Virus record (IMG/VR): IMGVR_UViG_3300043395_003024
Coordinates: 81,205-145,204 of that record
Origin: a virus
Length of the DNA: 64,000 nt
Strand: one strand, 5' to 3'
Shown: piece by piece, positions 3,001 through 39,379 of the stretch
How the letters are laid out: each line of letters opens with the position of its first letter
Position numbering within the stretch: position 1 is the first letter of the stretch
The notes under the pieces: model-generated
The model's database searches: none
Told to the model about the DNA's origin: nothing
What the model saw: only the letters and a program-made list of their open reading frames with translations
Translations under genes and position numbers: made by a program

Positions 3001-5262
3001 GATTCCGCAAAGACCGCAGGTGGAGATGTTGAAATTACAACAATGCAGCTTTCGAAGGGTCGCGAATCTAGATTCGTTGCAGTTGCGGAGGACCTCAGCG
3101 ACCCAATTTCAAATATCCCGGAAAAACTGGCGCAGGGTGAAGCTGGCGTCAGCTATATGGAAGAAGGCAACCTAGTTCACGTTGCATTCTCGCGTGCAAA
3201 AGAACAGCTCGACCCGGGCACTGCCGGATTTGTTTACTGGCTACATGACCAGCGCACAAAAGCGGTGCGAGAAGCCATAACGCAGGCTGTAAAAGATGGA
3301 CATATTCCGCCAGAGCTCGATAAGGGCGCATTTAGCGACGATGGCGGCATTGAGTTGCCGGAATGGTACAAAAAGCTCAACTCTATGTCTCTAGAGGAGC
3401 TAAAGGATGGATTCCCGGCTCGTCCAACAGACAAAAAAGAAGACGAAGACATAACTGTCCCATCACCTGTTGATGGTGGAGAACCCGATGATTTTGAACC
3501 AATCGTTACGGAAATTGACGAAGATGATTACGAAATGGGGGATACTGACGTCCCGAGTGACGAAGGTGAAAAACTACCAACATTCGATGATGATGAAGAA
3601 ATTATGGACGATGGCGAACTTCCGGAAGTCCCAGGCATGCGCCTATCCAGTGGCGCGACTCCTGGTGCGGATAGGCGCATAGCTCGCAGAAATAGGCGCA
3701 TAGCAAAGAGCAATTTGTACTCAAATAGCATGAGTGCACAGCAGCTTGCTGGAATAAGAATTAGCGGCGACCCAAATTCAAGCAAAAATAGACAAGCATT
3801 AGAGTTCGCAATGCAAGCATGGGACGGTGTACGTCGTCGTGGCATAGCTATTGACGTTGACGACGATACGCTTTCGGTAGCAGAGCGTCAGTCTAGGACG
3901 CGCGGTGCCATGCAGAGTGTCGGTGCGGCCATGAGGGGGCGCAAGGATAGGGTCCGCATTGGTAAGGTTAGTGATAATGGAAGAAATGAAAATCCATCGG
4001 CGGAAACATGGATGCTTTCTGTTGACAAGCTTGCTGACACAATAAGGATTCCAACAGAATTTACGTCAAGAGAAAACTCCGAGGGTGGCTCGACAATCCG
4101 CTGGACCCAGTCGCGCCCTGCAACGAGGGAAGAAATTGGTAAATTGCTTGGCCTTAGCCCTGCCGACGCAGAAAAGCTAAAGGACCCAGATGCAGGCATA
4201 AACCATGACGCAGTACGTCTTCTCATTGCGGAACTAGGCAAACAGGAAGACCTTCCAGCATGGAGATACTTTGCTCCTGTTAGCGCCGATGAGGCAAGGC
4301 GCATAACCCCTTCACCCGAAGGCGATATTGCGGAAAATATCCCTCAGGTAGATTTGGCTGCAGAAAATGCTGGCCGTGCAAACATGCGAGATAGGTTTAT
4401 TATCGAAACCTTCGGCAAAGACGCATATCCGCACTGGTTTGACGTCGAGGAAAACCAGTCGATGACGCCAGATGAGTACGTCCAGCTTGGAGAGATAAGT
4501 GAAACGTCTAAATTCCGTGCCTCTGGTCGCTTCTACCCAGATAGCGCAATCAAGGGCGACTCGGAAGCAGAAGTTGACCTTTACGGCGAATCACTTGACG
4601 CGCTTGTACCAGCAGAGGGTGCAGTAGATGCAACAGGCGATGTGCTGAGAAACGACAAGACTTCAATAGAAGATTTCGACCTTGACTCTCTGATTGATTA
4701 TCTAGGAATAGACAAAAAAGAGTGGAAGAAGGGCCTGCAGGAAAGACTTTCTGCAGCTTTTGGCACTGATTCGGTCGGAATCAACGATGAATGGAGAAGA
4801 AAAGGCATCCCAACAGCGACGGTTGCCCACATGATTAGAACGGGCGTTCTGCCAGATGCAGGGTCGGTATGGAAAGAGGCAGATGCCGGGCAAAAATTCG
4901 ACGACGAGATGAAGAGGCCAAAGTATGCGGTCTACGAGGCTTTGACTGAATTTATTGACAAGAGCTTCCCTAATTCCAGACTCAATAACAGAGAAAACAG
5001 AAACAAGATAATTGGCGCCACGGACATGGGGTACACCCTGACCAACGCGGCCAAGAATCGCGGTTCTGTCTGGAGCCCTGGGAAAGGGAACGAGCCACGG
5101 TTCTCTCGCGGAGAAATGCAATCAATGGTTGACAGGTTCAATGAAATATTTGGAACTAACCACACACTTGATGACATCTTCAGCGACGAGCAACTGAGAA
5201 CGGCCAAGGAAAGAGTCGAGTCCGGGAATACCCTTTCGGGCAAGAAAAAGCCAAAGGCTTAA
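1..5262 (+). CDS. Giant protein, 5'-truncated, with a UvrD/Rep-like SF1 helicase, an acidic linker, an LSSG motif and an unknown C-terminal domain
   Basis: Frame is open from base 1 (PTNEQRDIM, Q motif, precedes the track's Met130). Motifs: AGAGTGKTTT (Walker A), FNTKN, LLDEVQD (Walker B), VGDDRQAVYAFR, ITESFRYG, ILCRTN, TMQLSKGRES, HVAFSRAK. Confidence 0.85.
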   Translation, partial: GKKAGKIKGTKPGVPEIDRIAEDVSLKLAFGLANEPTNEQRDIMAVALSLIHGNNPAILSVLAGAGTGKTTTLKSIAWALQREFDLWPEGDPRRAEQLAYLSDRYGIDFSKIKPEKIADAVTELAKNNKTGNLYYTVFNTKNQLEAETEFPRNTGIATTDKLWQWSLRLGQGDKKYGPGMRRKMGMLNKSRESKKSMRRNPAWKSEEETPGVEKMIGKNFVREKFDGTTETFVGEDPGFEALGWTMLQKGDDFAEHLGLEKWPDVVKRKKMKPDVDASGRPIRDEKGKVKKSEVEVEGFELPNGTFLELSEMGDLLSNALKRWGLSKEEKVTAQHFMPPKQRLEDMDTPRGKDNQPTGVDSILTEEQIPKKWIEAVQSIVDEIADGDSNLLPTMELVSKFWMMTDPDLRTDPGLITHSSAQTRVKVSVPSSLREGDTYVYDGEEWVVTGLTKKAGKTSSATLRKKMASKENPLGAFLLDEVQDSNEVLETVLDRNRDKLPIILVGDDRQAVYAFRDAKNILASLDSEYSQDITESFRYGETVGHAANLVLGAQNVHLRRQGVKQQPWKHVKGQAQTVINRQFDPLLPEKDRLGNNPVDEIDDATRQILIADIEKKYSTPEKKLDLLSLDRPAQDKALKELRDTLYGPKAGQIVDRYAEADKGNLPTMILCRTNGEIINEALKFINIVINSKAVERDERGMPKLPEVIIPASKWEQLLTFTKHLDFIMRSPAKQQEYIARFGKPEMSSWLGPIWTQGTLQKALNQSKYQQARSAYKLIMQPPKSDPTAPPLGTRGMLELLQGTIVRSVHEKGKAKGKEKIEIIPAVLLPERKTMELDNWAVGIDQVREIAGRQKSAWKSSPTQREKLFIIPNVDDTYKQAVYAALDIEGGDDKRPGKPTGRIIITGDGVDTGRPIDMPDGSQRPNTPTGGRGSNNGRYRRDLEKAIIKLGLQDKVKPMAEAERGFRKEGEAQRRLYDGFVIEGATIEESTEILGQLAQALRDSAKTAGGDVEITTMQLSKGRESRFVAVAEDLSDPISNIPEKLAQGEAGVSYMEEGNLVHVAFSRAKEQLDPGTAGFVYWLHDQRTKAVREAITQAVKDGHIPPELDKGAFSDDGGIELPEWYKKLNSMSLEELKDGFPARPTDKKEDEDITVPSPVDGGEPDDFEPIVTEIDEDDYEMGDTDVPSDEGEKLPTFDDDEEIMDDGELPEVPGMRLSSGATPGADRRIARRNRRIAKSNLYSNSMSAQQLAGIRISGDPNSSKNRQALEFAMQAWDGVRRRGIAIDVDDDTLSVAERQSRTRGAMQSVGAAMRGRKDRVRIGKVSDNGRNENPSAETWMLSVDKLADTIRIPTEFTSRENSEGGSTIRWTQSRPATREEIGKLLGLSPADAEKLKDPDAGINHDAVRLLIAELGKQEDLPAWRYFAPVSADEARRITPSPEGDIAENIPQVDLAAENAGRANMRDRFIIETFGKDAYPHWFDVEENQSMTPDEYVQLGEISETSKFRASGRFYPDSAIKGDSEAEVDLYGESLDALVPAEGAVDATGDVLRNDKTSIEDFDLDSLIDYLGIDKKEWKKGLQERLSAAFGTDSVGINDEWRRKGIPTATVAHMIRTGVLPDAGSVWKEADAGQKFDDEMKRPKYAVYEALTEFIDKSFPNSRLNNRENRNKIIGATDMGYTLTNAAKNRGSVWSPGKGNEPRFSRGEMQSMVDRFNEIFGTNHTLDDIFSDEQLRTAKERVESGNTLSGKKKPKA

Positions 5263-7006: not shown

Positions 7007-10000
7007 ATGGCGAAGACCCCACAAACGCGGGAAAGAGTAATAGTTTCGGCACGACTAATTGTGCCAACCTCATGCTGCGGTGGCTTTAATGAAAAGGCAG
7101 TCCGATTCAGGACGTCTATCAATTCTTCGGTTTCTAGCGGTCGGCTACAAGCGGAGATGGCTACAAAAGCGATAACTAGTGGATTTGGAATACGTGTTAA
7201 GGCGTACGTTGACACGGACAATAAGAAACGCGAGTTCACTGGCGATTCTCGTCCGGGTGTTGAATCTAACGAATACGGCTACAGGTGGGAAAAGTCGGCT
7301 ACATGGGAACCCGGCTCGAGGCTCGTAATAAGTCCATCATTCAAATCAAGAGAAGGAATGGGCACAGAGCCAAACGTTGGCTGGATTAAGCCAGACAAGA
7401 ATGCTCCGAAGAATTTTGCAGAAACGCTTGAGCGAATCCGCTCAAAGCCGACAATAAAACTGAGCAAGTACAAAGTAAATCCCAAAACCGACGAGGTAAT
7501 CCCCGATTCCGAACAGGTAATTGACCCATTTGGCATCACTGCAGGCCTAAGCTACGAAGAAAAACAAAAAGCTATTCAAAAATATAAGGGAAACCTTATA
7601 GAGAAGAAAATGCTTCCTGGTCGCAGTCTTGAATCTCGTGTACCAGGCGGCTCGCTACTGTCGCGTGCCGCTGCGGTATTTGGCATTCTTCGTGACGAGA
7701 ACAACAAGTTCAGGTGCCCGCCGGGAACTCCAGCCGCAAACCAGTTTACGGATGCGACAGGTTCCAACTGTTTTGGTTTCAGCCCATCCAGGTTTGCTCG
7801 TTTTGCGGCAAGACAGGCTGCAAAACTTACAGCAGAAGGCGAATATCAGGGTCTTCGTAATAACGCGAGGTCATTCTTCAACTTCCTGTATAACGACCAA
7901 TACAGCGCAGAAGCGCGTGGCGTAGCAGACCCAGCACTTCTTGGGAGAAGCGTTTACTGGGACTCAATCAGCGGGGACAGATTCAAACCGCCATCATGGC
8001 GCGAGATTGAAGTGCCAGGAAATCTGCGGATGTTCAAGAATGGTGCTGTTCGCGGGCAGGACGATATTGCGCGACAAAAAGCATCAGTGGCCAGAATTGT
8101 TGAGTCTCTCGGGATAGACCCAGCAGACCCAGACGCATCACTTAAGGCCGCTCAGGCTTTAAGAAAAATGTGGGAGGACACTGGCGGCGCTGCCGGATGG
8201 GACCTTGAGATACTTAATGTTTCAGGTGATGGCGCGGCTTTACTTGATGATTTTGAAATAAAACAGTTCATGGAAGCTCGCCTTCAGTCTGTTCCCGGAT
8301 GGGGAGCGTTGTCTAAAGAAGAACGGGACAGACTGCTCCTTTCAGATATTGGCAGATACAAAGAAACACAAAAAGCAATGTTCGACACGTTGCTTGACCT
8401 ATTTTCAAAAGACCCAGCTGGCATGCGCAGCATAGGCCGTATCGAATACAACTTTTTTTCAGATGACGAAGCCGGAACATCACTATACAGAGATGCACCA
8501 AAACTAGTTCAAGCACTGAACCCGGATGGGACCCCACGACTAGACAGAGATGGCAATCCAGTTATGCGTAAAGTGCCTGGGGAAATGCGCACTGCAATTC
8601 ACATCAATATGGCTGAAATTCTTTCCAATCAGGAATCGATGCTCCCAGACATGCGTCCAGACCAGCGCCTGGCAATATCTGCCGTTGGCGCAAGAAGTGA
8701 AGCGGAGGGGCGTCTTGCTGTCGCTGACTTCCTGATTAATGCCGACTATGCATCTAGGGGAATGGCCGGCTTGCTGGATGGCGTCTATTCATTCTCTAGC
8801 CACATCATGCTCCACGAATCAGCACACCATAAACAAGCGCAACTATTTCAAGAGAAAATAATGTCTGAAATAGCAGACAAGGGATTCATTACTGTCCCCG
8901 TCATTAGGGACGGAGTCAAAATAGGCGAACGCAACGTCGATTCAATTTATAAATTGAGCGGAGATGACCTCATGGCAATCATGACGGATACCGCCGACTC
9001 AATAAATCTTGATTCACTTAATGATGCTATGGAGAGAATCAAGGCAATCGCCCCACTCGCCGGCTCGTATCCACGAGATACATACATAGAGGGTTCAGAG
9101 GTATGGGCGCTTGAGGCCTCAGCCGAGTTATGGGCATTGCGCGAGCGCGGAATCATCTATGGCGAAGATATTGATGCAGCACTTGAGTGGATGGACAGCG
9201 CAAGCTTTGCAGCCGCAGCCCGCGAAAGAGCCTCTGCCGACGATGATTCAGCAATGGATTCCATGGACGACGTGTTCCGTATCCCTACGCCAACCACGGT
9301 TCCAGACGATATGCCGGATGATGTCATTGAGGAGACGCTCGCTGATAGAGACGAGAGACTCGCTTCTGAGTTGCGCGAGGAAATAAAGCGATTTAAGACG
9401 GTATTTGGCGAGCTTCCAGAAGAAGAAATGTTCGATGAAGCTGCAATTATTGCTTCACAAAGAGATAATGCAAAACGCAGGCTAGATGCAGTAAGAGATT
9501 TTGAAATCGACCCGACCCTTCCTGACGACGAGAGAATTTCACTTGAATCCATGAAGGCAGAGGCAATAAAAGATTGCCAACGGGCCCTGGATTATCACAC
9601 TAAAAAATACGACGAAGCATCAAAGATATGGAGAAAAAAATATGGCGTAGGTGCCAGCGGAGAAAAGAAGCGTTTCGAAGACAGTGTCCGAGAGGTTAGG
9701 GAGCGAGAGGGTCTTCTAGATGTCGGGGAGATGGAAGAAATAGCAAGACTTGCGGACCTTGACGACCTGCGCGAGAGCGTAAAGGGAATGCCTGAGAAAA
9801 AGGTTATACGGAAGCTCGCCGACGATGAGGTTCGTCTTTCAACGATGGACCCAGCATCTCCAGAGGCAAGAGACCTCGCAGAGCGTATTGACGTCATAAA
9901 AGACCAACATGCGAAAAATCTAAAAGAGGCTGGCGATACCAGAAGCATCACAGCTGTTAAGAGAGATATCGACAAGAAGGTAAAGGACACAATCAGCCCT

Positions 10001-19138: not shown

Positions 19139-20497
19139 ATGTCGGAAGACAAAGCCCGTATCGAGGAGCTGCAATCAGCCCTCCGTCAGAAGATGGCAGA
19201 CAATAAGACCATCGCTGACTCATTCAGAGTTGAGGACGGCACCGTTGTCGTTACTCCAGAGCAGAAGAGCGCGTTCGACAAGAACATGCGCGACATCAAG
19301 GAAATCAAGGGCCTTCTCGGCGACCTTGAGACCATGAACTCAGTTGATAGCTGGGGTTCAGAGCCGTCAGGCGATTCAGCAGCCGCCGCTTACGCAGCTG
19401 CTGCCGCAGACATGAACCAACTGTCATCTCGTGAAATCAAGAGCATTGGTCAGATGTTCCTTGAGTCAGCAGAGTTCAAGGCTCTCAACGGTGGCCGTAA
19501 TGGCGCAAACATGGCCGCTCCGTGGCAGGTTGCCGCTTCGCTAACATCTGGCTACAACGTCAAGGACGTGTACTCAGGTCTGCCTACAACAGACGTTACC
19601 GGTAGCCGTCTCGGTTCATTCGGCACGGTTCAGCGTGACCCAATGGTAACACCGCCAATGCGCACAAAGCGCGTTCGCGACCTGTTCCCAACACGCACCA
19701 CAAACGCTGCAGTGATTGAGTACTTCCGTCAACTCGGCTTCACCACGCTTCAGGCTGGTCATGGCACGAACTCGGCTTCTTCGGTCGCTGAGCGCAACGC
19801 CGGCAACACAGCATTCGGTATCAAGCCGCAGTCATCGTTCGCCTTTGTTGGCGAGCAGGCGCCGGTTCGTACGCTCGCCCACTGGGAAGCAGCGCACCGC
19901 AACGTCCTCGCAGATGAGCCGCAGCTGCGTTCAATCATCGACAACGAGCTCATGTATGGTCTCCGTCTCCTTGAGGACAACCAAATCCTCAACGGTGACG
20001 GCGTCGGCGAGAACCTGCTCGGCGTTCTGAACACCCCGAACATCCAGGAGTACGCATGGTCATCCGGTGCCGTTACCCCGGTCCCGGACACAAAGGCTGA
20101 TGCTCTCCGTCGCGCTGCGACCCTCTCATTCTTGGCATACTACGAGCCGTCAGGCATCGTGGTTCACCCGAACGACTGGGAAGACATCGAGCTGACAAAG
20201 GACGCCAATGGTCAGTACCTCATCGCGGTTTCGGTCGCAATGGGTGGCGAGCCACGCGTCTGGAGAATGCCAATCGTGGACACCCCGGCAATGACCGAGG
20301 GTACAGCACTGGTCGGTGCGTTCGGTACCGGCGCACAGCTGTACGACCGCGAGCAGGCGAGCATCCGCATCAGCGAGCAGCACTCGGACTTCTTCGTCCG
20401 CAACGCCATCGTCATCCTCGCGGAGCAGAGACTGGCACTCGCCGTCAAGCGTCCGGAGGCCTTCGTGAAGGTGGACTTCGACAACGCCCCTGACTGA
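19139..20497 (+). CDS. Major capsid protein, HK97 fold with N-terminal delta/scaffold domain
   Basis: VRDLF, KPQSSFAF, VRTLAHW, LADEPQLRSII, EDNQILNGDG, HPNDW..IEL.KD.NGQYL, FVRNAIVILAEQRLALAVKRPEAF; AAGGAG RBS; strongly biased codons. Confidence 0.95.
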   Translation: MSEDKARIEELQSALRQKMADNKTIADSFRVEDGTVVVTPEQKSAFDKNMRDIKEIKGLLGDLETMNSVDSWGSEPSGDSAAAAYAAAAADMNQLSSREIKSIGQMFLESAEFKALNGGRNGANMAAPWQVAASLTSGYNVKDVYSGLPTTDVTGSRLGSFGTVQRDPMVTPPMRTKRVRDLFPTRTTNAAVIEYFRQLGFTTLQAGHGTNSASSVAERNAGNTAFGIKPQSSFAFVGEQAPVRTLAHWEAAHRNVLADEPQLRSIIDNELMYGLRLLEDNQILNGDGVGENLLGVLNTPNIQEYAWSSGAVTPVPDTKADALRRAATLSFLAYYEPSGIVVHPNDWEDIELTKDANGQYLIAVSVAMGGEPRVWRMPIVDTPAMTEGTALVGAFGTGAQLYDREQASIRISEQHSDFFVRNAIVILAEQRLALAVKRPEAFVKVDFDNAPD

Positions 20498-20514
20498 TAG
20501 AGGCTGAGTAGTGG

Positions 20515-30532: not shown

Positions 30533-33500
30533 ATGTCTGCAGATAATCAAGAGTTTCACATTCCCTTTGAGGAATCTCGTCGCGGTGCAAATTCAAGCCC
30601 GGAAAAGAAAGCTGCCCTAGGAAGACTTGGCCGCTATCTTGGCTCAAGAGCTATCGATAGGCCACGAATTGGCGACGGTCACCGTGATAGAAGACGCGGA
30701 AGGGACCATGGATTAAACATAGACCTGCCGACCGGCGGTAGACCGGGAAACAGACGCCCAACCGGTAGCCGCCTAGACCCAGATAATGATGGCTGGGCAG
30801 ACGAGGGGACAACTAAGCCGGTATGGGTTGGCATTGGCGGTGCTGAAAATCGCAATACCCGAGCGTCAGGTACGAGAATGGCGGAAGAGCCAGACACGTC
30901 GAGAACGCTTTCTTCAGGGAAGAAGTATCAGGAGATTGTTGATTCCCAGCCACCCGTGTCTGACGAAAAGAAAAAACTTGCATCTGAGTTTATAGACGAT
31001 ATAAAGCAGGGTGAATTTTTAAAAGAAGACGTATACGAGGAAGAAAAAGGTCCTCGCCCACCACGGCCGCCTGGAATGCCGGAGCCAAAACCGTTAATGG
31101 TAATCCAGGACAATGAAGACAGGAAGCTAGAAAAACAGCGTGTCCGCGATTTGTTGGCTGAGCTTTTTAAAGGTGAAATGACACTTGATGAAGACATTAT
31201 TATTACCACCGACGATGGGAAAAAAATAAATATAGGCAACAGGGTATTGATAGACATTGCTCCTAGCAGTGACTCGAAATACTCTACTTCTGTAAAAGTT
31301 CATAAGGCTAACGATGCGGATATCGCTGATGCCAAAGAGCTATATGGTGATACATTCGAACCGGGCGACATGCTGACCGAGGTTCAGCTTGGGTTTTTGG
31401 TTAGACCGCTTCCAGAGTACGAAAAAGAACTCATCGAATCATTAACGGACGAAAATAAAAAATCATTTCTCTCCTATGAAGATGGACGTTTATCGCTAGC
31501 ACGCGCATATAGAACATATATCAATGTTTCTAATGACGAAAAAAACCTGGGATTAATTTCTCATGATTCATTTTATGTTCTTGGCATGGCTCAGGGCCAG
31601 GGGATAGGTTCGGCGTTTAATGCCAGAAATGAAAAACTATATAACGAGCTTGATGTTGCTTCGATATATACACACGGCCATTCAGGCAAGGGGGCACGCG
31701 GCGCTGTCCATTGGCCCAAGAATGGATTTACGTGGGCTGGAGAAAACGACAAACAGAAGTTCTTATCGATAATCGACAAGGCCATCACGGAGCAACCAGA
31801 AATATTCTCTGCGGAAGATAAAAAGAAAATATCTTCTCTATATAGAAAAAATCCAGATACTGGGCTTTTTGAAACAGAAGCAACAGCCGAGGAGCTTGTC
31901 GACTTCCCCGCCGCATATGAAGTATTTGCGGATGAAGAAGCACAGATAATGTACTCAAGGCCGCTAAAACAGCTCGCAGTGGCATCCTCGGGCCGTCTAT
32001 CGTCCGGCTCAACTAAGCGTAGCTCTCGTGGAGTCCACGTATCAGAGCTGTACGACGGCGACTATGGCACGTGGGAAGAGGGGGCATTGCTCACTCCAGA
32101 ATCACTATACAGACTCATATCTAGAGTGTTTGAAAAAAACGATATAGATGCGTCTTTGCCTAAATACGATGGAGCTCTTGAAAAAATAACTGAGTATAAA
32201 GATTTTGGGTCAGTAATTAATGACTCACTAAGGCTGGGTTACACATTTGATGACCCGCGGTCCCCCAACCTGTACGAATATGCGTCTATGCAGCGGCTCC
32301 TAATGGACAACAGAATAACCGCCGGCATAACGTTGTATAGGTCAATCGCGAATACGCCAGAAATTGCATCGCTTAAAGAGGGTGACACATTTGGCGATAG
32401 GGGCTTCCAGAGCTTTACAGTGATGGCCCCAGGCCAATACTCTGGAATGGGAGACAAAAGGCCAATAGTTCTTCGCTTATTAACAACAAAGAACACGCGT
32501 GGCAGATACATATCTAGACGCCCAAATGACTATAACCTAGAAAACTTTGATACCCGGAAGCCTCTCGACGAAAGATATTTTGGAATAAATGAACACGAAG
32601 TATTGCTGCCTGCTGGTGCAACATACAAGCTGGTTAAGAAGACGCAGACTGATGATGGACGTGAAATCTGGGACGTCAAACTTTCCGGTCAAGGCAAGCT
32701 CAGTTCTGGGGCAAAAGAAGTAGCACTAGATAATGTTGATTCCAATACGCTAAGTAGCGGGAAACCACCACGTCACCCAAGAACGCCAACGCTTGGTGCA
32801 TTTATCGGTACTGCTGATGAAGAATTCGCAGACATAAAATCGTGGGACGAGTTTAAGAAGCTGTACGACGACAAAGAAGTTATATTTTTTGACTATGAAA
32901 CAACCGGATTAGTTTTTGACGAATTCGGGAAAGAGATTAGTAAAGGTGCGCCAGTCCAGTTCGGTGCCGTGAAAATAAAAAACGGCAAAGAGGTCGAAAG
33001 AATAAATCTGTTCATGAATCCTGGAGAGCCACTCGGTGAGTGGTCTAGGAATAATCTCAAAGATAAAGACGGAAATCCACTAACAGATGAATGGCTGGGC
33101 AGCCAGATATCTATAGACGAAGCACATAAGCAGCTGATTGAGTTTGCGGGCCCAGAAGCAATATTTGGCGTTCAGAATGCCACATTTGATAAGGGAGTTC
33201 TTGACGGCGTTCTGGAACAAATGGGTGAAAAGTGGCGCCCATCTGGATACCTGGACACGAGAGAAATAGCTTCCCTAACTCTCCCAAAGTGGACCCCGGA
33301 AACGGATGACGGTCCGTTCATGCTTGACAAAGAAGGAAATAAAAAGCCATCTAGTAGCCTTGCTGCAATAACCGAATATCTCGGAGTAAACCTCGGCGAT
33401 GGCCACCATAACGCTGACTCAGATGCTTTTGCAACAAGCCAAGTAATGCGCCGGATTATTGATGGGGCTATCGAAAAGAATTGGCCGACAGATGCTCTGA

Positions 33501-36500
33501 ATAAACAAAAGCGCGATTCGCTGCATAAGCAAACAGTCGACAAATTTAATGAAGAAGTAGCCCAGTTTGAAAAAGACAAAGCTTCGTATTTCGAATCACT
33601 TTCATCAAATTCTGAGTCGCTTTCATCTGGTCGCAACCGGCCGGTCATTCAAATCAAGCCAACACAGGAACAGAAGCCAACAGAGCCAGGTAAGCGCGCG
33701 GTCAAGGGCTATGGCCAGCCTGATGCATCCGGAAAAGAAGTACGCAGAACCAACACCAAATGGCTAGCTGGGATGACTCCTGACGAAATCGCGCAAGTGG
33801 TTGTCCCAACCAGCGACGAACAGCGTTTTGAAATGTGGGCTGATGACATAGCCGGTGATACTTGGCGCACAAATCGTAAGTGGAGAAAATTCCTAGAAAA
33901 GTATTATTCGGAACTAGGCAAAGCTGACAATTCTCTACCTATTGATTATTCCCCAGAGTCGGTAAAGGCAGCACAAGACCTTGTTCGTGGGCTACTTGAG
34001 TCGTCCCCGCAGATGAGGTGGATGTTCGAGAACCATGGCGCCCCCCTGATAACAGTGTTTTCACGCGAAGCTGTAGATGCTTACGAAAACAACGGGGATA
34101 TGAAACAGCGCATGGAGCAGCTACGGATTCAGCGCGGGGTAGAGAAGACGCCATTCGTTAGTGGGCTCGCAGTGCGCGAATACGGGCTCATTGGATTTAC
34201 ACCGCGAGCAATAATTGATAGGGAGTCGTTAACGACATCCGAAAAGGGCGTATATCCAATTTCACTAAATCCAGACAGGCTCCCAGAACCGCGCGATGCA
34301 CATATGGACAGAAGCCTTGAGGGCACACTAGTGCACGAATATGGCCACTGGCTCCACTATCGCGCCATATGGGATACGGAGACAAATGGGGCATCCGGCA
34401 AGGCGCGTTCGTACTACGGAAATGGCGATTTAAGGGACCCTAAATACACCGCAGCACTCGATGTTGCTGAGGAATATGCAAACCCCGATACGGACAATGA
34501 AGCAATAGAAATATATACGCAGTTTGTTGACCTGACTGGTCGTGACGCCGAGGAAATGTTTAGGGCAAATCCGGACAAAGCGCTAACTGCAACATCTTAT
34601 GGAAATGTCAATAAGCGCGAAGCAATAGCTGAGGCGTTTGTTGCAATAATGCACCCAAACAGAGAAATGGCAAAGCGCGCTTTAAGCAAAAAATTGCGCG
34701 ATGACATTTACACCCTTGCTGGGGTAGATAAAGATGACCTTCCGTGGGATAGACGTGCGGACGGGCGTCCGACAATAAGACTTTCTTCTGGGGCTACGCA
34801 AAAACCAGAGCGCGAGAAGCGCAGGGGACGGATGGCCAGGGCGCTAAGACAGCTCATAGGCGGGGACGAGGCTGCCGAAGAACCAGAGAAGACTCAGGAG
34901 CCATACACATTCGAGGCCCCAGAAAGGCCGGAAGGCCTAGCATCCTTTGCTACAGGACCATCTGAGCGCCTGCGCGCCTCGCTTCCAATACCCTCAGAGG
35001 AGGATTTAACTGCGGAACTAGAACATGACGTGAGGGCAATGATTCTTGACCCAGTTATCGAGGGCCTATCCACACTTGATGTAACAGGGTTTGGCGTAAG
35101 CATGTTTTCATCCGAGGAGGATAGAAAAGCTAGCTCCTCAGCAAAGAGAATGATTGCGTCAAATATTGCAGAAACAGCAAAGATTGAACCGCGTGAATTC
35201 ATTAAATCGTTCTCTGAAGAATCAATTAAAGAAAGCGGTCTAGATTTAGCTGCTCAACGAAGATTTTTCCATGCGGCTGCAAATTTCAGGGCACTAAAAG
35301 GAATATTTGATGCCGTTGACAATCTTCCAGAAAATGCAACTGAAGAAGAAAGGCGTGCTGCCGGAAGGTTTGCTATTGACAGGTCCTCTGGCGCGGTGGT
35401 GTCCGTAGAGAAGCATGACAAAATAATCCAAAAGAGGTTCTGGTTTGACGAAATCATAGATGAGCTGGAAAAACGCTCATACGAGGACCTGTTCGGCGAC
35501 AAATGGAATGAACTAACAAACATTGCGCTAGGCGACGAGAAGTCAATATTGACTCCATACTTGATAACGCGTCTTGGTGGAGACGAAATCAAAAAAGACA
35601 TGCTCAATTTTGGCCTCCAAATAAGGACAATGTTCAACGATTTAATAGCGGAGATGAAGGGCGCTAACGGCGCCGACCGTAAAGACCCGCTAACTGGAAG
35701 ACCATTGAAAGACGGGGATGGATTAGCCCTAATGTTCTCTCCAATGGGCGAGATTGACCCACGCACAGGAAAGCCTGGGATGGCATTGATTTCTAAGGGT
35801 GGCTCAATAAGTGACCAGTACGCAAGGGATTTCAAATCACTTATCCGTGATGGAAAGATTGTTCCAGAGCTAGAAAGAACAGATGAGCAACACAAGGCCT
35901 ACGACAGACTTTACGTAAATTACGGAGCGAAAGATGACTACCTGGAGAGGGTGGCAGCTGCTGGATTATTTGTTGTTGACGCAACAAATGTTGATTCCCC
36001 AGAAACAAAAGAATTATTAAAAAACTTTTTGATAAATAGATTGCGGTTTATTGCCGGCAATGCAGAGGATTATAAAGCGCGTTATGAATACAAGAGCGGT
36101 ATTTCATTTTTCGATATAAATTCTCCGGAAGGGATAAGAGAGGCGCGGTTAGCAATAGTTTCCGACATCATCCATACATGGGCAATTTCTTCCAATAACT
36201 CAAACCCTGTAGCCATGGCAATACAGCACGAAGCACGAAAAATGTTTGGGCTGGACGATGCAGTTGGTTGGTACGGAGGCGTGCGTGGCAAGAGAAATGA
36301 CATTCTCTACGATTCGGCTATACCGATTGAGCGGCGTTCAGAGTTTGGCGACCTTGCTTTTGACGATACCCCAGAACTTAGCGAAAAACAGTCAGAAGTG
36401 ATTCGCTCTGTAGTGAAGGCAATATACGACGCTACGCAGCATTACTACAAGTCAAAAGGAATTACGCATCTTGGTGTATGGCGAGGCATGAAAGCCACGC

Positions 36501-39379
36501 CACAAATGGCAGTCGGAAGAGGAGAGATTGCCGAAAGAGAAGTGGCTATGCGTCCGCTTTCGTCGTGGACAACGAGCAGCACTATGGCCCAGGCTTTTTC
36601 AACATCGCTCGCTGCCGCTAAAAAACCAGGGATAGATGCGCTAGAGGAAGCTCAGGCTGTATTTGATTCAAACGTCCTCATGAAGGCATACATTCCTGTA
36701 GAACAAATATTCTCAAACCCACTAACCGGATTTGGCTGCCTCGGAGAGGACGAGGTTGTAGTGCTTGGTCGTCCAACAAAGACGTTGATGATTACTCCTC
36801 CGGCTAATTTCCTTCCGGAAATGCCATCTGATGGCGAAGGGACGGAAGGTGCTCGCGAAGTCATCCAACAAACACTTGATATTGCTACAAACAGAGACAA
36901 GATTACAAACGCCGCATATAGGGAATTGCGTAGGACGGGATTTGACAAATTCAGCAGTGGTCCAACGCGTAATGATTCAGAAAGACTTTCGTCAGGCGCC
37001 AGACTGTCCCAGGTCACGGAAAAACTACCGATAGAGGGAGAGCTTAGCGTAGCTGAAACGACCGGAGAAACGGAAGGTGGCATATCCAAGATTGCATTTG
37101 GAAAAAGAATTGCCGCAGTACTTGAAAAGACACTTGGAATTACTCTCGATGACTATCAGAGAAAAACAATTCAAGATATAATGCCAAATCTTCTTAAAGC
37201 GCTGAACAAAAGAAGGCTTCAGGAAGTGAAGCCACACCCCGCGTTCAGTGATACAGGAAGACAATTACTAGACTCAATATCGATAAGCATCGCTGCAGAC
37301 GGTATACCCTTCGTGTCGGCTGACCCAATCCCGCAGATAGCGGAACACATACCAAAGAAAATTGATTGGAGAACAGTGGAACTTCCTTCGCGTAGTTCGT
37401 TGCTTCCAATCCTTGACAGGGCAGTGGCCGGTTCGCTGTTGTTTGACGACGAAAAGAAAGAATGGTTAGATGTTTTGGGCAACGCTGTTGCAAGACAAGC
37501 TTCAGTAAATGGTGAATCAGTTCTCCAATATGTAGACGAAGCGGCAAAAGCTAAATTCCCACTTTTGGAAGCTATAGCACCAAAGGGTTATGTACTACCA
37601 TCCGACGCAATAGGGAATAGCGCCCTCCAGCGTGATGTGCTGCCCGGGATATATGGCGAAGCATGGCGTAAACACAGCGAATTTATGATGGAGCTGGCTG
37701 CAAAAGCTGGCGCAGCGATGGGTGACAATTCCCTGTTTGATGGAACGAAAAACAGAAGAGATTCCAGTTCTTTTGTTGAGTCGTACGTCGGAGGAATAGA
37801 GGACCCTATCTACTTCAATATGGGCCTATCTGGAAAGGCGCTTCAGGCCCTCCACGACCTATTCGGACACCTTGGTACTGGCCGCGCATTTGACAGACAC
37901 GGAGAATGGGCAAATGACATTGCCATGATGTCAATGGCGGACCACCCCGACTCTCCGCTATCCGACTTAGAGAAGCTTGCTGTAAAGCATTTGCACTTCC
38001 AGTTATATGCAGCAAGAAGACTTGGACGCTCACGGCGAGATGATTCTGGCGACCCCGGCTTCATACATGCAGTGACGGATACGTTTGGTATAAGGGATGG
38101 CGAGCTCAGGGGGAGGCGGGTTTCGCTTGTTTATGCAGGCGACTTCCGAACGGCAGCCGAGGAGATGGAGAGGGTCTCGATTAACAACAAGCTGTCATCA
38201 GGCAGAAAGAAAATTCAAGATGCGTCAAAAGACGATATAGAGCTAGCCGTAGCCCAGGACATTATCGGCCATAGTGAATCACGAGCCAGGCGATTCAAGC
38301 CAAGCAAATCAACTCGCTTATCTTCTGGGAAGGTTATTAAATATAACCTGATTGAAGCGCGCATGAAGGCCAGCGATATGAGGATTACTTTCAATCGTGA
38401 CCCGGAGAGAGTTGCCGCGGTGAAAGCAACGCTCACCAAGGGCTTTATGGGCGGCTTTACCGTCGAAGTCGACAGGATGGATGACATAAAAGAAGGTATA
38501 GCCATAGCCAGAAATAAGCACGGCATGAAAGTTGACGCCGTAGCAGATTTTGACGCTGAAGGTAATCCGTCTGACGAGCTAGTAGAAACCTTCTTGTCAT
38601 GGATGGACTTCCATGGGCCTAAAACGTTTGCAAACCCAAAGCAGGGGGCAGACAAAACAACAATCGGCGGATGGGTTTCCGATGGGACAGTCTACCTTGA
38701 TGTTGTTGACGTTTATCCAAACAATGAAGAGAACCTTTCCAGGGCTGCCGACATGGGGCTCCAGGAAGACCAAATAGCCGTAACCGACCTGAACAAGCTT
38801 TGGGAATTGCTTGGACGAAATGAAGACCCAAGCCCTGCATTTATTGACTCTGGTGGCACTGGTGGATTCACCCTAGACGAGGAGTCGGTAAGAAAAGTTA
38901 GTGCCGCACTGAGCGAACTTAAGTCAAACAAGTTCAATACTGGCTCTTCGCATCTCAAACGAATTGGTAACACCAGGAAATTTACCGAGGGCCCAATAAC
39001 TGGAGCTCGTAGGGTCAGGAATACAGATTTATCCACAGGTGAAACCAATGATTACTGGGTAATTTCCGGAGCGGACGGAATGGTAAAAGTATTTACGCAT
39101 GAACAGTACATCAAGGTAAGGGACGGAAAAATACAGGGCCTATTTGACAAAATGTCAAATCCTTCTGACATTCTCAGAAGCATGTTCGAGGCTGAGAAGT
39201 TGAAGCCAGCGGCCACGATGTCTTTCGGAAGTAGGCGTACGGTTGGCAAGCCGACGATATCCAAGGAGCATAAGGGTCGCGGTCTGGCTGCGGCGATGGC
39301 AAATCTATATGGATTTGCAAATGGCCTAAATAATGTCGGAGTTCAAATGGGCGACAAGGTTGTCGCGGCTATGGCGTGA
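30533..39379 (+). CDS. Giant multidomain protein, 2948 aa: GNAT, ADP-ribosyltransferase, DEDDh exonuclease, HExxH zincin, second ART-like, HDxxGH domain and C-terminal domain, separated by 10 (L/F)SSG motifs
   Basis: QGQGIGS; LYRS..GFQSFT..EHEVLLP; FFDYETTG..NATFD..HNADSD; HEYGH..EAIAE; VWRG..LSSWTT..EDEVVV; HDLFGH; own TGGTATTAT promoter-like site at 30516. Confidence 0.82.
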   Translation: MSADNQEFHIPFEESRRGANSSPEKKAALGRLGRYLGSRAIDRPRIGDGHRDRRRGRDHGLNIDLPTGGRPGNRRPTGSRLDPDNDGWADEGTTKPVWVGIGGAENRNTRASGTRMAEEPDTSRTLSSGKKYQEIVDSQPPVSDEKKKLASEFIDDIKQGEFLKEDVYEEEKGPRPPRPPGMPEPKPLMVIQDNEDRKLEKQRVRDLLAELFKGEMTLDEDIIITTDDGKKINIGNRVLIDIAPSSDSKYSTSVKVHKANDADIADAKELYGDTFEPGDMLTEVQLGFLVRPLPEYEKELIESLTDENKKSFLSYEDGRLSLARAYRTYINVSNDEKNLGLISHDSFYVLGMAQGQGIGSAFNARNEKLYNELDVASIYTHGHSGKGARGAVHWPKNGFTWAGENDKQKFLSIIDKAITEQPEIFSAEDKKKISSLYRKNPDTGLFETEATAEELVDFPAAYEVFADEEAQIMYSRPLKQLAVASSGRLSSGSTKRSSRGVHVSELYDGDYGTWEEGALLTPESLYRLISRVFEKNDIDASLPKYDGALEKITEYKDFGSVINDSLRLGYTFDDPRSPNLYEYASMQRLLMDNRITAGITLYRSIANTPEIASLKEGDTFGDRGFQSFTVMAPGQYSGMGDKRPIVLRLLTTKNTRGRYISRRPNDYNLENFDTRKPLDERYFGINEHEVLLPAGATYKLVKKTQTDDGREIWDVKLSGQGKLSSGAKEVALDNVDSNTLSSGKPPRHPRTPTLGAFIGTADEEFADIKSWDEFKKLYDDKEVIFFDYETTGLVFDEFGKEISKGAPVQFGAVKIKNGKEVERINLFMNPGEPLGEWSRNNLKDKDGNPLTDEWLGSQISIDEAHKQLIEFAGPEAIFGVQNATFDKGVLDGVLEQMGEKWRPSGYLDTREIASLTLPKWTPETDDGPFMLDKEGNKKPSSSLAAITEYLGVNLGDGHHNADSDAFATSQVMRRIIDGAIEKNWPTDALNKQKRDSLHKQTVDKFNEEVAQFEKDKASYFESLSSNSESLSSGRNRPVIQIKPTQEQKPTEPGKRAVKGYGQPDASGKEVRRTNTKWLAGMTPDEIAQVVVPTSDEQRFEMWADDIAGDTWRTNRKWRKFLEKYYSELGKADNSLPIDYSPESVKAAQDLVRGLLESSPQMRWMFENHGAPLITVFSREAVDAYENNGDMKQRMEQLRIQRGVEKTPFVSGLAVREYGLIGFTPRAIIDRESLTTSEKGVYPISLNPDRLPEPRDAHMDRSLEGTLVHEYGHWLHYRAIWDTETNGASGKARSYYGNGDLRDPKYTAALDVAEEYANPDTDNEAIEIYTQFVDLTGRDAEEMFRANPDKALTATSYGNVNKREAIAEAFVAIMHPNREMAKRALSKKLRDDIYTLAGVDKDDLPWDRRADGRPTIRLSSGATQKPEREKRRGRMARALRQLIGGDEAAEEPEKTQEPYTFEAPERPEGLASFATGPSERLRASLPIPSEEDLTAELEHDVRAMILDPVIEGLSTLDVTGFGVSMFSSEEDRKASSSAKRMIASNIAETAKIEPREFIKSFSEESIKESGLDLAAQRRFFHAAANFRALKGIFDAVDNLPENATEEERRAAGRFAIDRSSGAVVSVEKHDKIIQKRFWFDEIIDELEKRSYEDLFGDKWNELTNIALGDEKSILTPYLITRLGGDEIKKDMLNFGLQIRTMFNDLIAEMKGANGADRKDPLTGRPLKDGDGLALMFSPMGEIDPRTGKPGMALISKGGSISDQYARDFKSLIRDGKIVPELERTDEQHKAYDRLYVNYGAKDDYLERVAAAGLFVVDATNVDSPETKELLKNFLINRLRFIAGNAEDYKARYEYKSGISFFDINSPEGIREARLAIVSDIIHTWAISSNNSNPVAMAIQHEARKMFGLDDAVGWYGGVRGKRNDILYDSAIPIERRSEFGDLAFDDTPELSEKQSEVIRSVVKAIYDATQHYYKSKGITHLGVWRGMKATPQMAVGRGEIAEREVAMRPLSSWTTSSTMAQAFSTSLAAAKKPGIDALEEAQAVFDSNVLMKAYIPVEQIFSNPLTGFGCLGEDEVVVLGRPTKTLMITPPANFLPEMPSDGEGTEGAREVIQQTLDIATNRDKITNAAYRELRRTGFDKFSSGPTRNDSERLSSGARLSQVTEKLPIEGELSVAETTGETEGGISKIAFGKRIAAVLEKTLGITLDDYQRKTIQDIMPNLLKALNKRRLQEVKPHPAFSDTGRQLLDSISISIAADGIPFVSADPIPQIAEHIPKKIDWRTVELPSRSSLLPILDRAVAGSLLFDDEKKEWLDVLGNAVARQASVNGESVLQYVDEAAKAKFPLLEAIAPKGYVLPSDAIGNSALQRDVLPGIYGEAWRKHSEFMMELAAKAGAAMGDNSLFDGTKNRRDSSSFVESYVGGIEDPIYFNMGLSGKALQALHDLFGHLGTGRAFDRHGEWANDIAMMSMADHPDSPLSDLEKLAVKHLHFQLYAARRLGRSRRDDSGDPGFIHAVTDTFGIRDGELRGRRVSLVYAGDFRTAAEEMERVSINNKLSSGRKKIQDASKDDIELAVAQDIIGHSESRARRFKPSKSTRLSSGKVIKYNLIEARMKASDMRITFNRDPERVAAVKATLTKGFMGGFTVEVDRMDDIKEGIAIARNKHGMKVDAVADFDAEGNPSDELVETFLSWMDFHGPKTFANPKQGADKTTIGGWVSDGTVYLDVVDVYPNNEENLSRAADMGLQEDQIAVTDLNKLWELLGRNEDPSPAFIDSGGTGGFTLDEESVRKVSAALSELKSNKFNTGSSHLKRIGNTRKFTEGPITGARRVRNTDLSTGETNDYWVISGADGMVKVFTHEQYIKVRDGKIQGLFDKMSNPSDILRSMFEAEKLKPAATMSFGSRRTVGKPTISKEHKGRGLAAAMANLYGFANGLNNVGVQMGDKVVAAMA

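What the first reader, a model, noticed from the sequence alone, without database searches (positions are those of the whole stretch)
3643..38329. LSSG-punctuated giant polyproteins: a candidate cleave-and-deliver effector system
Seen: the three giant ORFs contain 15 LSSG plus 1 FSSG, often as (R/K)LSSG(R/K/A). Positions: 3643; 10940, 11243, 11360, 13073, 13448; 30908, 31997, 32699, 32750, 33620, 34781, 36950 (FSSG), 36986, 38192, 38318. Rough chance expectation in about 7200 aa is well under one copy. Codons differ between copies (ctt tct tca ggg, cta tcg tcc ggc, ctc agt tct ggg, tta tca agt ggc), so selection acts on the peptide, not on a DNA repeat. Most copies lie in flexible linkers at domain borders, several as close pairs. 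Known: T4 Alt and phiKZ-like head proteins are protease-processed and injected; polyvalent proteins string such domains together. Inference: LSSG is a dedicated cleavage or sorting signal that releases single enzymes from head-packaged polyproteins. I do not know of this motif being described.
Basis: partly seen in the sequence, partly recalled or inferred. Interest (0 to 1): 0.93.

Follow-up and report, generated by a model that had tools for sequence, protein, structure and literature searches.

The report
Junction-peptide code in phage polyproteins
The giant proteins of this uncultured 145-kb phage are divided into enzyme-sized modules by a short peptide (Arg/Lys-Leu-Ser-Ser-Gly) that related phages replace with their own version, which looks like a cutting code for a phage protease, although no cutting has been measured.

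Summary
All 15 LSSG and the one FSSG lie at the stated coordinates. LSSG is the commonest 4-mer in the phage's four giant proteins: 20 copies against 0.32 expected, P about 4e-29. L[SA]SG is 25-87 times denser there than in the rest of the proteome in three complete relatives.

The motif persists in variable, indel-rich linkers and flanks folded domains. It also marks the breakpoints where modules are reshuffled between relatives.

New here:
- The tape measure protein, a tail protein, carries the motif too.
- Sister clades use other "dialects" (RFSSG, SGRM, STRS, and others), and these change together in the head-module giants, the protease-bearing protein and the tape measure protein. That implies one trans-acting reader per lineage.

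A protease is the most likely reader, but cleavage is inferred, not shown. Its identity is open. Candidates are the S78 prohead protease fused to giant A and three zincin modules, one of which has a confident fold resembling the M34 peptidase family (anthrax lethal factor, Pro-Pro endopeptidases).

"Head-packaged" is only partly right, because of the tape measure sites and because giant C sits beside replication genes.

This scan has already noted the same phenomenon on other DNA (LSSG, GMRS and [IV]SGxM dialects). I found no published description.

The parts
1..5262 (+). C-terminal 1753 aa of giant A (whole protein 2943 aa, starts 3569 nt before the window). Domain order: S78 prohead protease, leader-like segment, ArdC (ssDNA-binding domain plus MPTase zincin), SF1/UvrD helicase, C-terminal module.
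   Evidence: Pfam Peptidase_S78 36-179, ArdcN 808-899, MPTase-PolyVal 957-1080. PDB ArdC 6sna E 8e-39 over residues 804-1097. UvrD hit.
3643..3654 (+). LSSG junction, A residue 2405, between the helicase module and the last module.
   Evidence: invariant in 6 homologues while the flanks have indels.
7007..14482 (+). Giant B (2491 aa) in the head module. It has a 1311-aa motif-free N-terminal module followed by five junctions.
8813..8827 (+). HESAH in the B N-terminal module, a candidate zincin active site. A downstream E-x-x-A-E is also invariant.
   Evidence: HExxH and ExxAE align in five genomes down to 23% identity, including the SGRM-dialect genome. The fold was not tested.
10940..10951 (+). 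LSSG junction, B residue 1312.
   Evidence: Kept in all homologues inside an indel-rich linker.
11243..11254 (+). LSSG junction, B residue 1413 (LASG in some relatives).
11360..11371 (+). LSSG junction, B residue 1452.
   Evidence: invariant R-LSSGR.
13073..13084 (+). LSSG junction, B residue 2023.
13448..13459 (+). LSSG junction, B residue 2148, on an insertion specific to this genome.
30533..39379 (+). Giant C (2948 aa), next to primase, with ten modules delimited by nine junctions.
30533..30907 (+). C leader (residues 1-125). Residues 24-57 resemble A residues 554-584. The same leader heads many metagenomic polyproteins.
   Evidence: BLASTP 65% identity, E 9e-5. Sequences.
30908..30919 (+). 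LSSG junction, C residue 126.
31997..32008 (+). LSSG junction, C residue 489.
32000..32698 (+). ADP-ribosyltransferase module (C residues 490-722), bounded exactly by two junctions.
   Evidence: Pfam ADPrib_exo_Tox E 8.7e-8, above the curated cut-off.
32699..32710 (+). LSSG junction, C residue 723.
   Evidence: Lies in a stretch with pLDDT below 50.
32750..32761 (+). LSSG junction, C residue 740.
   Evidence: Lies in a stretch with pLDDT below 50. Also a module breakpoint.
32882..33445 (+). DnaQ/RNase T-like exonuclease domain (C residues 784-971).
   Evidence: Pfam RNase_T E 1.4e-7. Confident AF2 domain spanning 751-1014.
33620..33631 (+). LSSG junction, C residue 1030.
   Evidence: Low-pLDDT linker 1015-1054. 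Module breakpoint. In a relative, an extra 110-aa cassette with its own motif is inserted here.
33632..34780 (+). Zincin module (C residues 1034-1416) with an intact HEYGH...Y...E...AE signature.
   Evidence: Invariant H1268 E1269 H1272 Y1356 E1363 A1366 E1367 in 27 sequences. AF2 mean pLDDT 91.4. Best structural matches are the anthrax LF catalytic domain (Z 8.8) and the Pro-Pro endopeptidases PPEP-3 and PPEP-2 (Z 6.8 and 6.2).
34781..34792 (+). LSSG junction, C residue 1417.
36950..36961 (+). FSSG, C residue 2140. Probably not a true site.
   Evidence: FNSA in the nearest relative.
36986..36997 (+). LSSG junction, C residue 2152.
   Evidence: Module breakpoint in two relatives.
38192..38203 (+). 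LSSG junction, C residue 2554.
38318..38329 (+). LSSG junction, C residue 2596.
   Evidence: Module breakpoint.
19139..20497 (+). Major capsid protein (context). It has LTSG at residue 135, near the expected maturation site, but this is not conserved.
   Evidence: phrog_10 and Pfam Phage_capsid. Alignments.

Best explanation
S-x-[R/K]-L-[S/A]-S-G-[K/R/A] is the local 'dialect' of a junction signal read by one trans-acting, phage-encoded factor. That factor is most likely an endopeptidase. It would cut the giant polyvalent proteins A, B and C into their separate modules: ArdC, helicase, ADP-ribosyltransferase, exonuclease, zincin and unknown modules. It would also trim the tape measure protein.

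Shown here:
- extreme enrichment of the motif, confined to these proteins;
- conservation of the motif inside otherwise variable linkers;
- its position between folded domains;
- module reshuffling whose breakpoints fall at the motif;
- co-ordinated change of the motif in unlinked proteins of sister clades.

Inferred: that the signal is cut, by which enzyme, and when.

On the enzyme, I lean slightly towards a zincin-type protease carried by the polyproteins themselves. The fast-evolving HExxH...ExxAE module at the start of B is the only such module present in every dialect. Zincins also usually place a hydrophobic residue at P1'. That would put the cut just before the Leu, Phe or Met that nearly every dialect contains. 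The S78 prohead protease fused to A is nearly as likely.

Cutting could happen in the cytoplasm, in the prohead, or after ejection into the next host.
For: Enrichment and specificity.

Conservation: the motif is kept in indel-rich linkers of homologues at 58-83% identity.

Domain borders:
- ArdC spans 804-1097, between junctions at 784 and 1188.
- The ADP-ribosyltransferase Pfam domain lies inside 490-722.
- In the AF2 model, C motifs 723, 740, 1030 and 1417 sit in pLDDT<50 linkers around a confident exonuclease domain.
- The zincin module folds as one compact domain that fills the interval between junctions 1030 and 1417.

Module shuffling: BLASTP blocks between C and its homologues in two relatives are in a different order, and most block ends fall within 3-13 residues of a motif. 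Sequence conservation runs right up to the C-terminal side of the motif, while the N-terminal side is variable.

Dialects: giants of sister clades (capsid protein 70-86% identical) are punctuated by RFSSG, SISGRM, GGLTGA, PTASMG, EAGMS or STRS instead.

Co-variation:
- The N-terminal site of the tape measure protein reads KLSSGR in LSSG genomes. It reads KLSSGA in G007 and KFSSGR in G019, both [LF]SSG genomes. It reads ISTRSL in the STRS genome and LAGRMG/LNGRMG in SGRM genomes.
- The S78-bearing protein of the SGRM clade carries ASGRMG just after the protease.

Candidate proteases with intact active sites: S78; ArdC MPTase, PF18818 E 8e-41; the C zincin; the B HExxH...ExxAE module, which aligns in five genomes.

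Precedent: Iyer et al. 2017 predicted that polyvalent proteins are processed by MPTase or assemblin-like peptidases, without naming a site (PMC5512222).
Against: There are no protein-level data, so cleavage is wholly inferred. No candidate protease fits cleanly.
- The C-type zincin is absent from a complete genome (G019) that keeps the [LF]SSG dialect in its S78 giant (15 copies), its B-like giant and its tape measure protein.
- The ArdC MPTase and the C-type zincin are both absent from the complete SGRM genome.
- Calling the B module a zincin rests on motifs only. Profile comparison with the C zincin gave 3.5% probability, and Pfam and PDB gave nothing.
- S78 is 66-80% identical between dialects, with invariant catalytic blocks.
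- The capsid protein, the expected S78 substrate, has no conserved dialect motif.

The tape measure sites are awkward for any protease that works only inside the prohead.
Confidence: 0.6

Rival explanations
1. A narrower, T4/phiKZ-like version. The S78 prohead protease fused to giant A is the reader and cuts the cargo inside the prohead, as gp21, gp175 and gp245 do at their consensus motifs. This is nested within the cleavage reading, and its odds are part of the 0.6 above.
For: S78 is the only recognised protease found in every genome examined, whatever its dialect. It has an intact His/Ser signature. The dialect motif follows the protease in S78-bearing proteins of three clades: residue 660 in A, 604 in the FSSG genome and 326 in the SGRM genome. 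That fits self-release, as reported for SPN3US gp245 (PMC10052503). About ten S78 columns separate the [LF]SSG genomes from the IxGxM-type genomes, one of them next to the catalytic His. The window's capsid protein has LTSG where maturation cleavage is expected. The delta domain of HK97 gp5, which its S78 protease degrades, contains KLASGA; that is an anecdote.
Against: The catalytic blocks are invariant across dialects, and S78 diverges no faster than the capsid protein. The capsid LTSG is not conserved even among close relatives, and no dialect motif appears in capsid proteins of other clades. The tape measure protein assembles outside the head yet carries co-varying sites. Known prohead-protease motifs are stable over far larger evolutionary distances (my knowledge of T4-like and phiKZ-like phages).
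Confidence: 0.25
2. The motif is a docking or sorting signal that is never cut. It would be a short linear motif bound repeatedly by a chaperone, the capsid interior, the portal or an ejection factor. Its role would be to keep long proteins threaded for packaging or for ejection through the tail.
For: All motif carriers are long proteins that are known or inferred to leave the virion through the tail (tape measure protein, head-module giants). The motif sits in accessible linkers. Co-variation needs only a co-evolving binder, not a protease.
Against: One copy would be enough to sort a protein. Here there is close to one copy per module junction, often in redundant pairs 7-40 residues apart. 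Modules move between proteins together with their junction. A stand-alone version of one module exists in the FSSG clade. All of this is more natural if the modules work as separate proteins.
Confidence: 0.15
3. The motif is a post-translational modification site, for example Ser phosphorylation or Arg/Ser ADP-ribosylation by the ADP-ribosyltransferase modules the polyproteins carry.
For: R-x-S-S resembles basophilic kinase sites (my knowledge). C carries at least one ADP-ribosyltransferase. Modification sites are often in disordered regions.
Against: Nothing explains why modification sites should coincide with module junctions and recombination breakpoints. Some dialects (GGLTGA, EAGMS) lack the Arg or the Ser pair.
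Confidence: 0.07
4. The motif is a passive leftover of cassette exchange, a linker that spreads with modules, and nothing reads it.
For: Modules are clearly exchanged at these points.
Against: Codons differ between copies. The four residues are invariant while the neighbouring residues drift. The motif changes in concert in unlinked genes, including the tape measure protein. Hitch-hiking cannot produce that.
Confidence: 0.03

Closest known systems
Polyvalent proteins of phages and conjugative elements (Iyer, Burroughs, Anand, de Souza, Aravind 2017, PMC5512222)
   Same: Giant multi-enzyme proteins of a phage with ArdC-N, an MPTase zincin, helicase, ADP-ribosyltransferase and nuclease domains. 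They lie partly in the head-morphogenesis module. Processing by a zincin or an assemblin-like peptidase was predicted.
   Different: That work names no processing site (no hit for 'linker' and no motif in the passages read). It reports the assemblin-like peptidase at the C-terminus, whereas here S78 is N-terminal. The junction peptide, its dialects, its presence in the tape measure protein and the breakpoints at junctions are additions.
Prohead-protease processing of head and ejection proteins in T4 (gp21, L/I-x-E) and in phiKZ/SPN3US (gp175/gp245, A/S/G-x-E)
   Same: One short consensus motif marks many substrates. The cargo carries a targeting leader that is cut off. The protease cuts itself at the same motif (PMC10052503).
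   Different: In those phages the capsid protein and scaffold share the motif, only head proteins are cut, and the motif is stable across distant relatives. Here the capsid protein lacks the motif, a tail protein has it, and it changes between phages whose capsid proteins are 70-86% identical.
Polyprotein processing in eukaryotic RNA viruses and in ASFV/adenovirus (protease-specific junction motifs such as LxGG, GG-x)
   Same: Beads-on-a-string enzymes separated by a virus-specific junction peptide in flexible linkers, with the protease encoded within the polyprotein.
   Different: This is a DNA phage with several polyproteins plus a structural tail protein. No homology is implied; it is an analogy of design only.
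M34 zinc endopeptidases (anthrax lethal factor catalytic domain; Pro-Pro endopeptidases PPEP-1/2/3)
   Same: The C module 1034-1416 has HExxH, then a Tyr and a Glu seven residues apart (the spacing I recall for lethal factor Y728/E735). Its best structural matches are LF (Z 8.8) and PPEP-3 and PPEP-2 (Z 6.8 and 6.2). Those enzymes are strictly sequence-specific endopeptidases.
   Different: There is no Pfam or sequence match to M34. The Z-scores are moderate, and there is a long insert between HExxH and the Tyr. The module is absent from one genome that keeps the dialect, so it is not the indispensable reader.

Membership tests
Polyvalent proteins (Iyer et al. 2017) | Several unrelated effector or enzyme domains in one phage or plasmid polypeptide | tested here: met
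   A: S78, ArdC-N, MPTase, UvrD helicase. C: ADP-ribosyltransferase, RNase T-like exonuclease, zincin.
Polyvalent proteins (Iyer et al. 2017) | MPTase-PolyVal zincin hub domain | tested here: met
   PF18818, E 8.4e-41, 139 bits against a cut-off of 27.5, A residues 957-1080.
Polyvalent proteins (Iyer et al. 2017) | Delivered with the DNA (packaged in the virion) | not testable with these tools
   Synteny only. A and B lie between the portal and capsid genes. C lies beside primase. A related case, phi24B gp47, was detected in virions by proteomics (bioRxiv 10.64898/2026.04.10.717836).
T4/phiKZ-type prohead-protease motif systems | A prohead protease of the assemblin/HK97 fold is encoded | tested here: met
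   Peptidase_S78 E 4.4e-12 (46.9 bits, cut-off 21) and phrog_80 E 1.4e-28.
T4/phiKZ-type prohead-protease motif systems | The same motif marks the maturation site of the major capsid protein or scaffold | tested here: not met
   LTSG at capsid residue 135 occurs in this genome only. Relatives read SLTS-Y, SLTSHNG or SLTTQG, and other clades show no dialect motif.
T4/phiKZ-type prohead-protease motif systems | Substrates are head proteins only | tested here: not met
   The protein at the tape-measure position (sheath, tube, chaperone, then D) carries conserved and co-varying sites.
T4/phiKZ-type prohead-protease motif systems | Cleavage at the motif shown by mass spectrometry or N-terminal sequencing | not testable with these tools
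   No protein data exist for this uncultured phage.
Peptidase family M34 (lethal factor / PPEP) | HExxH plus a downstream catalytic Tyr and a Glu zinc ligand | tested here: met
   H1268, E1269, H1272, Y1356 and E1363 are invariant in 27 sequences down to 17% identity.
Peptidase family M34 (lethal factor / PPEP) | Fold of the catalytic domain | tested here: inconclusive
   Model pLDDT 91.4. LF Z 8.8 over 184 residues at rmsd 5.1; PPEP-3 Z 6.8. Foldseek E 0.014.
Peptidase family M34 (lethal factor / PPEP) | Sequence-profile match to the family (Pfam ATLF / Peptidase_M34) | tested here: not met
   No Pfam hit on C at E<=0.01. PDB phmmer gave only PolC exonuclease. ATLF appeared only as a weak lead in the ESM Atlas protein look-alike search.

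The most novel reading that the evidence does not exclude
A lineage-specific 'junction-peptide code'. Each phage lineage has its own 4-7-residue dialect, read by a co-evolving protease that the polyproteins carry themselves. The giants and the tape measure protein would travel through the tail as uncut strings and be cut only after ejection. This would release a timed set of counter-defence and takeover enzymes inside the new host. If the cut falls before the Leu, Phe or Met, each released enzyme would start with an N-degron residue that limits its lifetime.
Probability: 0.15. Interest if true: 0.9.

Novelty: new variant of a known kind. Interest (0 to 1): 0.72.

Why it matters
Polyvalent proteins are thought to be a main way for phages and plasmids to deliver counter-defence enzymes, but how a 3000-residue string becomes working enzymes is unknown. 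An explicit, easily recognised junction code makes the processing hypothesis directly testable, using reporter linkers, N-terminomics and dialect swaps.

The code would also give an annotation rule that splits thousands of unannotated giant metagenomic ORFs into their real functional units. More than 560 relatives of the protease-fused giant exist in IMG/VR alone, and dozens of 2-7-kaa proteins carry the same layout.

The co-variation with the tape measure protein links head cargo and tail proteins to one processing system, which no studied phage shows. Orthogonal protease and site pairs with different dialects could also be useful as tools.

Tried and rejected
- **S78 and linker complex.** Complex prediction of the S78 domain with a 37-residue LSSG linker gave no answer (score 0.00, controls not run). 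It counts neither for nor against.
- **Capsid LTSG as the matching maturation site.** Rejected, because it is not conserved.
- **RLSSG just after the capsid gene's double stop (window 20504).** It overlaps a terminator-like hairpin and is taken as chance.
- **C-type zincin as the necessary reader.** It looked promising at first. It was present in 10 of 10 [LF]SSG genomes checked and absent from the other dialects. Among 75 metagenomic giants it also associated with the motif (Fisher P 6e-6). It was rejected as indispensable once the complete genome G019 proved to have the dialect without the module. The only HMM hit there is a 321-aa ORF with no HExxH.
- **B-type versus C-type zincin by hhalign.** Only the HExxH turn aligns, at 3.5% probability.
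- **Searches that found nothing.** PDB phmmer of B found nothing. Pfam and PHROGs found nothing for the B modules or for D.
- **Stand-alone relatives of the zincin module.** The search for homologous proteins gave one fragmentary hit.
- **ESM Atlas protein look-alike search.** Feature scores were below 0.9, so they are leads only.
- **'GLHTAPR' in genome G018.** It is a tandem-repeat protein, not a junction dialect. That genome's giants show I-x-G-x-M instead.
- **GenBank phages.** They hold no relative of B or C. The capsid protein is at most 49% identical to Brevibacterium and Gordonia phages.
- **Literature searches.** Searches for LSSG, for polyvalent-protein cleavage sites and for HK97 protease specificity found no description of such a motif.


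Full report
**Setting.** The window is the last 64 kb of a single 145,204-bp viral contig. Gene order around the finding is: large terminase, portal, giant A, a 533-aa acidic protein, giant B, five small or medium ORFs, then the major capsid protein. Giant C lies further on, after ribonucleotide reductase, primase-helicase and a small DNA-binding protein. The phage is a myovirus. Sheath, tube and tail-assembly-chaperone genes are followed by a 1604-aa ORF (D) at the tape-measure position, then by baseplate genes. GenBank phages hold no near relative; the capsid protein is at most 49% identical to Brevibacterium and Gordonia phages. IMG/VR holds hundreds of relatives.

**Observation.** ORF A continues upstream of the window. 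The complete protein has 2943 aa, with 4 LSSG and 1 LASG, and D has 2 LSSG. The four giants hold 20 LSSG against 0.32 expected from composition (P about 4e-29), and LSSG is their commonest 4-mer. In three complete related genomes, L[SA]SG occurs 21-23 times in the four giants and 1-3 times in all other ORFs. That is a 25-87-fold difference in density. The extended consensus is S-x-[RK]-L-S-S-G-[KRA].

**Selection on the peptide.** Homologues of A, B, C and D from IMG/VR are 58-83% identical overall. They keep the four residues at nearly every site, while the surrounding linker changes by substitutions and indels. In several linkers the motif has "moved" within the indels but is still present. 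A few sites switch to LASG or sit on lineage-specific insertions. The one FSSG of the finding is not conserved.

**Domain borders.**
- In A, the solved ArdC structure aligns to residues 804-1097, between junctions at 784 and 1188. The helicase lies between junctions 1188 and 2405.
- In C, the piece 490-722 taken alone matches the ADP-ribosyltransferase exoenzyme family above its curated threshold.
- An AlphaFold model of C 700-1450 gives a confident exonuclease domain (751-1014). Stretches with pLDDT below 50 flank it and contain motifs 723, 740 and 1030. Motif 1417 also lies in a low-confidence stretch.
- With a 27-sequence alignment, the interval 1034-1416 folds as one compact domain (mean pLDDT 91.4), with only its first 20 or so and last 13 or so residues uncertain.

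**Modules are units of evolution.** The C homologues of two relatives contain the same blocks in a different order. The ends of the BLASTP blocks mostly lie within 3-13 residues of a motif in both partners. One relative has an extra 110-aa cassette inserted at junction 1030, with a motif on each side. Among 167 junctions in 17 diverse polyproteins, conservation runs right up to the C-terminal side of the motif (50-76% identity at +5 to +12). The 20 residues before it are at 13-33% identity. The motif therefore behaves as the N-terminal cap of the following module.

**Dialects.** Eighty loci around related capsid genes show that the closest clade uses LSSG. Other clades have other over-represented peptides in the equivalent giants:
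- RFSSG;
- S-I-S-G-R-M and G-V-S-G-x-M;
- G-G-L-T-G-A;
- P-T-A-S-M-G;
- E-A-G-M-S;
- S-T-R-S.

In the complete SGRM-type genome G009, SG[RK]M occurs 14 times in the giants and once elsewhere. That one copy lies just after the S78 and DUF6321 domains of the protease protein. In the complete FSSG-type genome G007 the count is 26 in the giants against 2 elsewhere.

A search of 1.8 billion representative proteins with C 1421-2600 returned dozens of 2-7-kaa metagenomic proteins. Many have the same N-terminal leader as C and about 3 [LF]SSG per 1000 residues. Others are punctuated by GFAS[RS], GLAS, GLSSR, GMRS, GLRS or STRS. More distant ones carry quite different recurring peptides. Nearly all dialects contain a hydrophobic residue (L, F, M, I or V) followed by small residues.

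**Co-variation across unlinked genes.** The tape measure protein keeps K-L-S-S-G-R at residue 36 in four LSSG genomes. It also keeps one L[SA]SG that wanders within a hypervariable Gly/Pro-rich stretch. In the equivalent N-terminal region it reads:
- KLSSGA in the FSSG genome G007, with RFSSGA at an internal site;
- KFSSGR in G019;
- ISTRSL in the STRS genome, with DSTRSA internally;
- LAGRMG/LNGRMG in the SGRM genomes, with GISGKM internally.

Concerted change in proteins encoded tens of kilobases apart requires a common reader. It excludes hitch-hiking of a linker.

**Who reads it?** Four candidate proteases have intact catalytic signatures.

1. *S78 prohead protease at the N-terminus of A*. 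It is present in every dialect at 66-80% identity, with invariant catalytic blocks. About ten of its columns still separate [LF]SSG genomes from IxGxM-type genomes.
2. *The ArdC MPTase of A.* It was found in the four [LF]SSG genomes checked (G000, G001, G007, G019) but not in G008-G011.
3. *The zincin of C.* HExxH, Tyr and Glu are invariant in 27 sequences. Its best structural matches are the lethal-factor catalytic domain and Pro-Pro endopeptidases, all highly sequence-specific enzymes. It co-occurs with Phi-x-S-type dialects in metagenomic giants (Fisher P 6e-6). It was present in 10 of 10 [LF]SSG genomes first examined, and is a stand-alone 363-aa gene in the FSSG clade. But the complete genome G019 keeps the dialect in its S78 giant, B-like giant and tape measure protein without this module. 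It is therefore not indispensable.
4. *The motif-free N-terminal module of B.* Its HExxH and downstream E-x-x-A-E align in all five genomes compared, including the SGRM genome. It is among the fastest-diverging parts of the head module: 32% identity between the LSSG and FSSG clades, and barely alignable to the SGRM clade. Its fold is untested, and profile comparison with the C zincin was negative.

The capsid protein carries no conserved dialect motif. That, together with the tape measure sites, separates this system from the T4/phiKZ paradigm. I therefore regard cleavage as likely (about 0.6) and the enzyme as unresolved, with a zincin slightly ahead of S78. A complex prediction for S78 with a linker gave no answer.

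**Packaging.** A and B lie in the head module. Residues 24-57 of the C leader resemble A residues 554-584, at the end of A's first, protease-bearing fragment. From my knowledge of HK97, the C-terminal tail of that phage's protease targets it into the prohead. By analogy, the shared segment may be a capsid-targeting peptide that C borrows. This is inference only. Related large polyvalent proteins have been detected in virions (phi24B gp47).

**Comparison with what is known.** The proteins are members of the polyvalent-protein class, for which processing by MPTase or assemblin-like peptidases was predicted but no site was given. The design resembles T4/phiKZ/SPN3US cargo processing and eukaryotic viral polyproteins. 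It differs in four ways: the fast-changing dialects, the absence of the motif from the capsid protein, the involvement of the tape measure protein, and the cassette shuffling at junctions. I found no paper that describes such a motif. Earlier notes of this scan describe the same phenomenon on other genomes, with the LSSG, G-[ML]-R-S and [IV]-S-G-x-M dialects. I met all three dialects independently here. So the finding is a further, well-documented member of a class that the scan has met repeatedly but the literature has not.

**Verdict.** Novelty: a new variant of a known kind. Interest: 0.72.

Noticed in passing
window 30602-30703 (C residues 24-57) and A residues 554-584 (upstream of the window, genome 79294-79386): A shared 30-residue segment ([E]xKAAxxRLGRxxGSRxIDRPxIG). 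It heads C and many metagenomic polyproteins, and in A it sits at the end of the protease-bearing first fragment. It may be a capsid-targeting peptide.
   Followed up: partly
window 20498-20560: Directly after the capsid gene's TGA-TAG double stop, the same frame reads RLSSGVTPGSNR. This resembles RLSSGATPGADR at A residue 2405. It overlaps a GC-rich hairpin followed by a T run, so it is probably a terminator and a chance match.
   Followed up: partly
window 5391-6992: A 533-aa protein between giants A and B. Its N-terminal half is extremely acidic (runs of E and D), and it has Cys pairs. It has no family match. It could be a scaffold-like or DNA-mimic protein.
   Followed up: no
window 15621-17654: A 677-aa head-module protein of unknown family. 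It has PRLAAGR at residue 210, which reads PRLASGR in a relative. This may be a weak extra site of the same code.
   Followed up: no
window 20545-21414; L143:7255-9621: The DUF6321 domain stands in a separate ORF just after the capsid gene here. In the SGRM-dialect clade it is fused directly behind the S78 protease.
   Followed up: no
G007:C1:95813-96904 (locus L155): In the FSSG clade, the M34-like zincin is a stand-alone 363-aa gene. It sits next to primase, at the position where this genome has polyprotein C.
   Followed up: partly
proteins P0010, P0019, P0041: More distant giant proteins (2.6-7 kaa) with the same ADP-ribosyltransferase-like domain are punctuated by quite different peptides: KHGTGDQSPHGNW, KGDVxGHxFHGNQW and PSQNREG. 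The junction-code principle may therefore be much wider than this phage group.
   Followed up: no
L256:1029-2183 (HK97 gp5): The HK97 capsid delta domain, which its S78 protease degrades, contains KLASGA (residues 63-68). The protein ends in FSSGS. This is a single anecdote that fits the L[SA]SG pattern.
   Followed up: partly
window 52000-64000: G+C rises from about 0.47 to 0.53-0.58, and the GC skew changes sign over the last 12 kb of the contig. The composition differs from the rest of the phage.
   Followed up: no
window 36098-36787 (C residues 1856-2085): A second ADP-ribosyltransferase-like signature (VWRGM ... LSSWT ... GEDEVV), read by eye only. It is the most widespread block in the representative search, found in hundreds of proteins. 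It has no Pfam match.
   Followed up: partly
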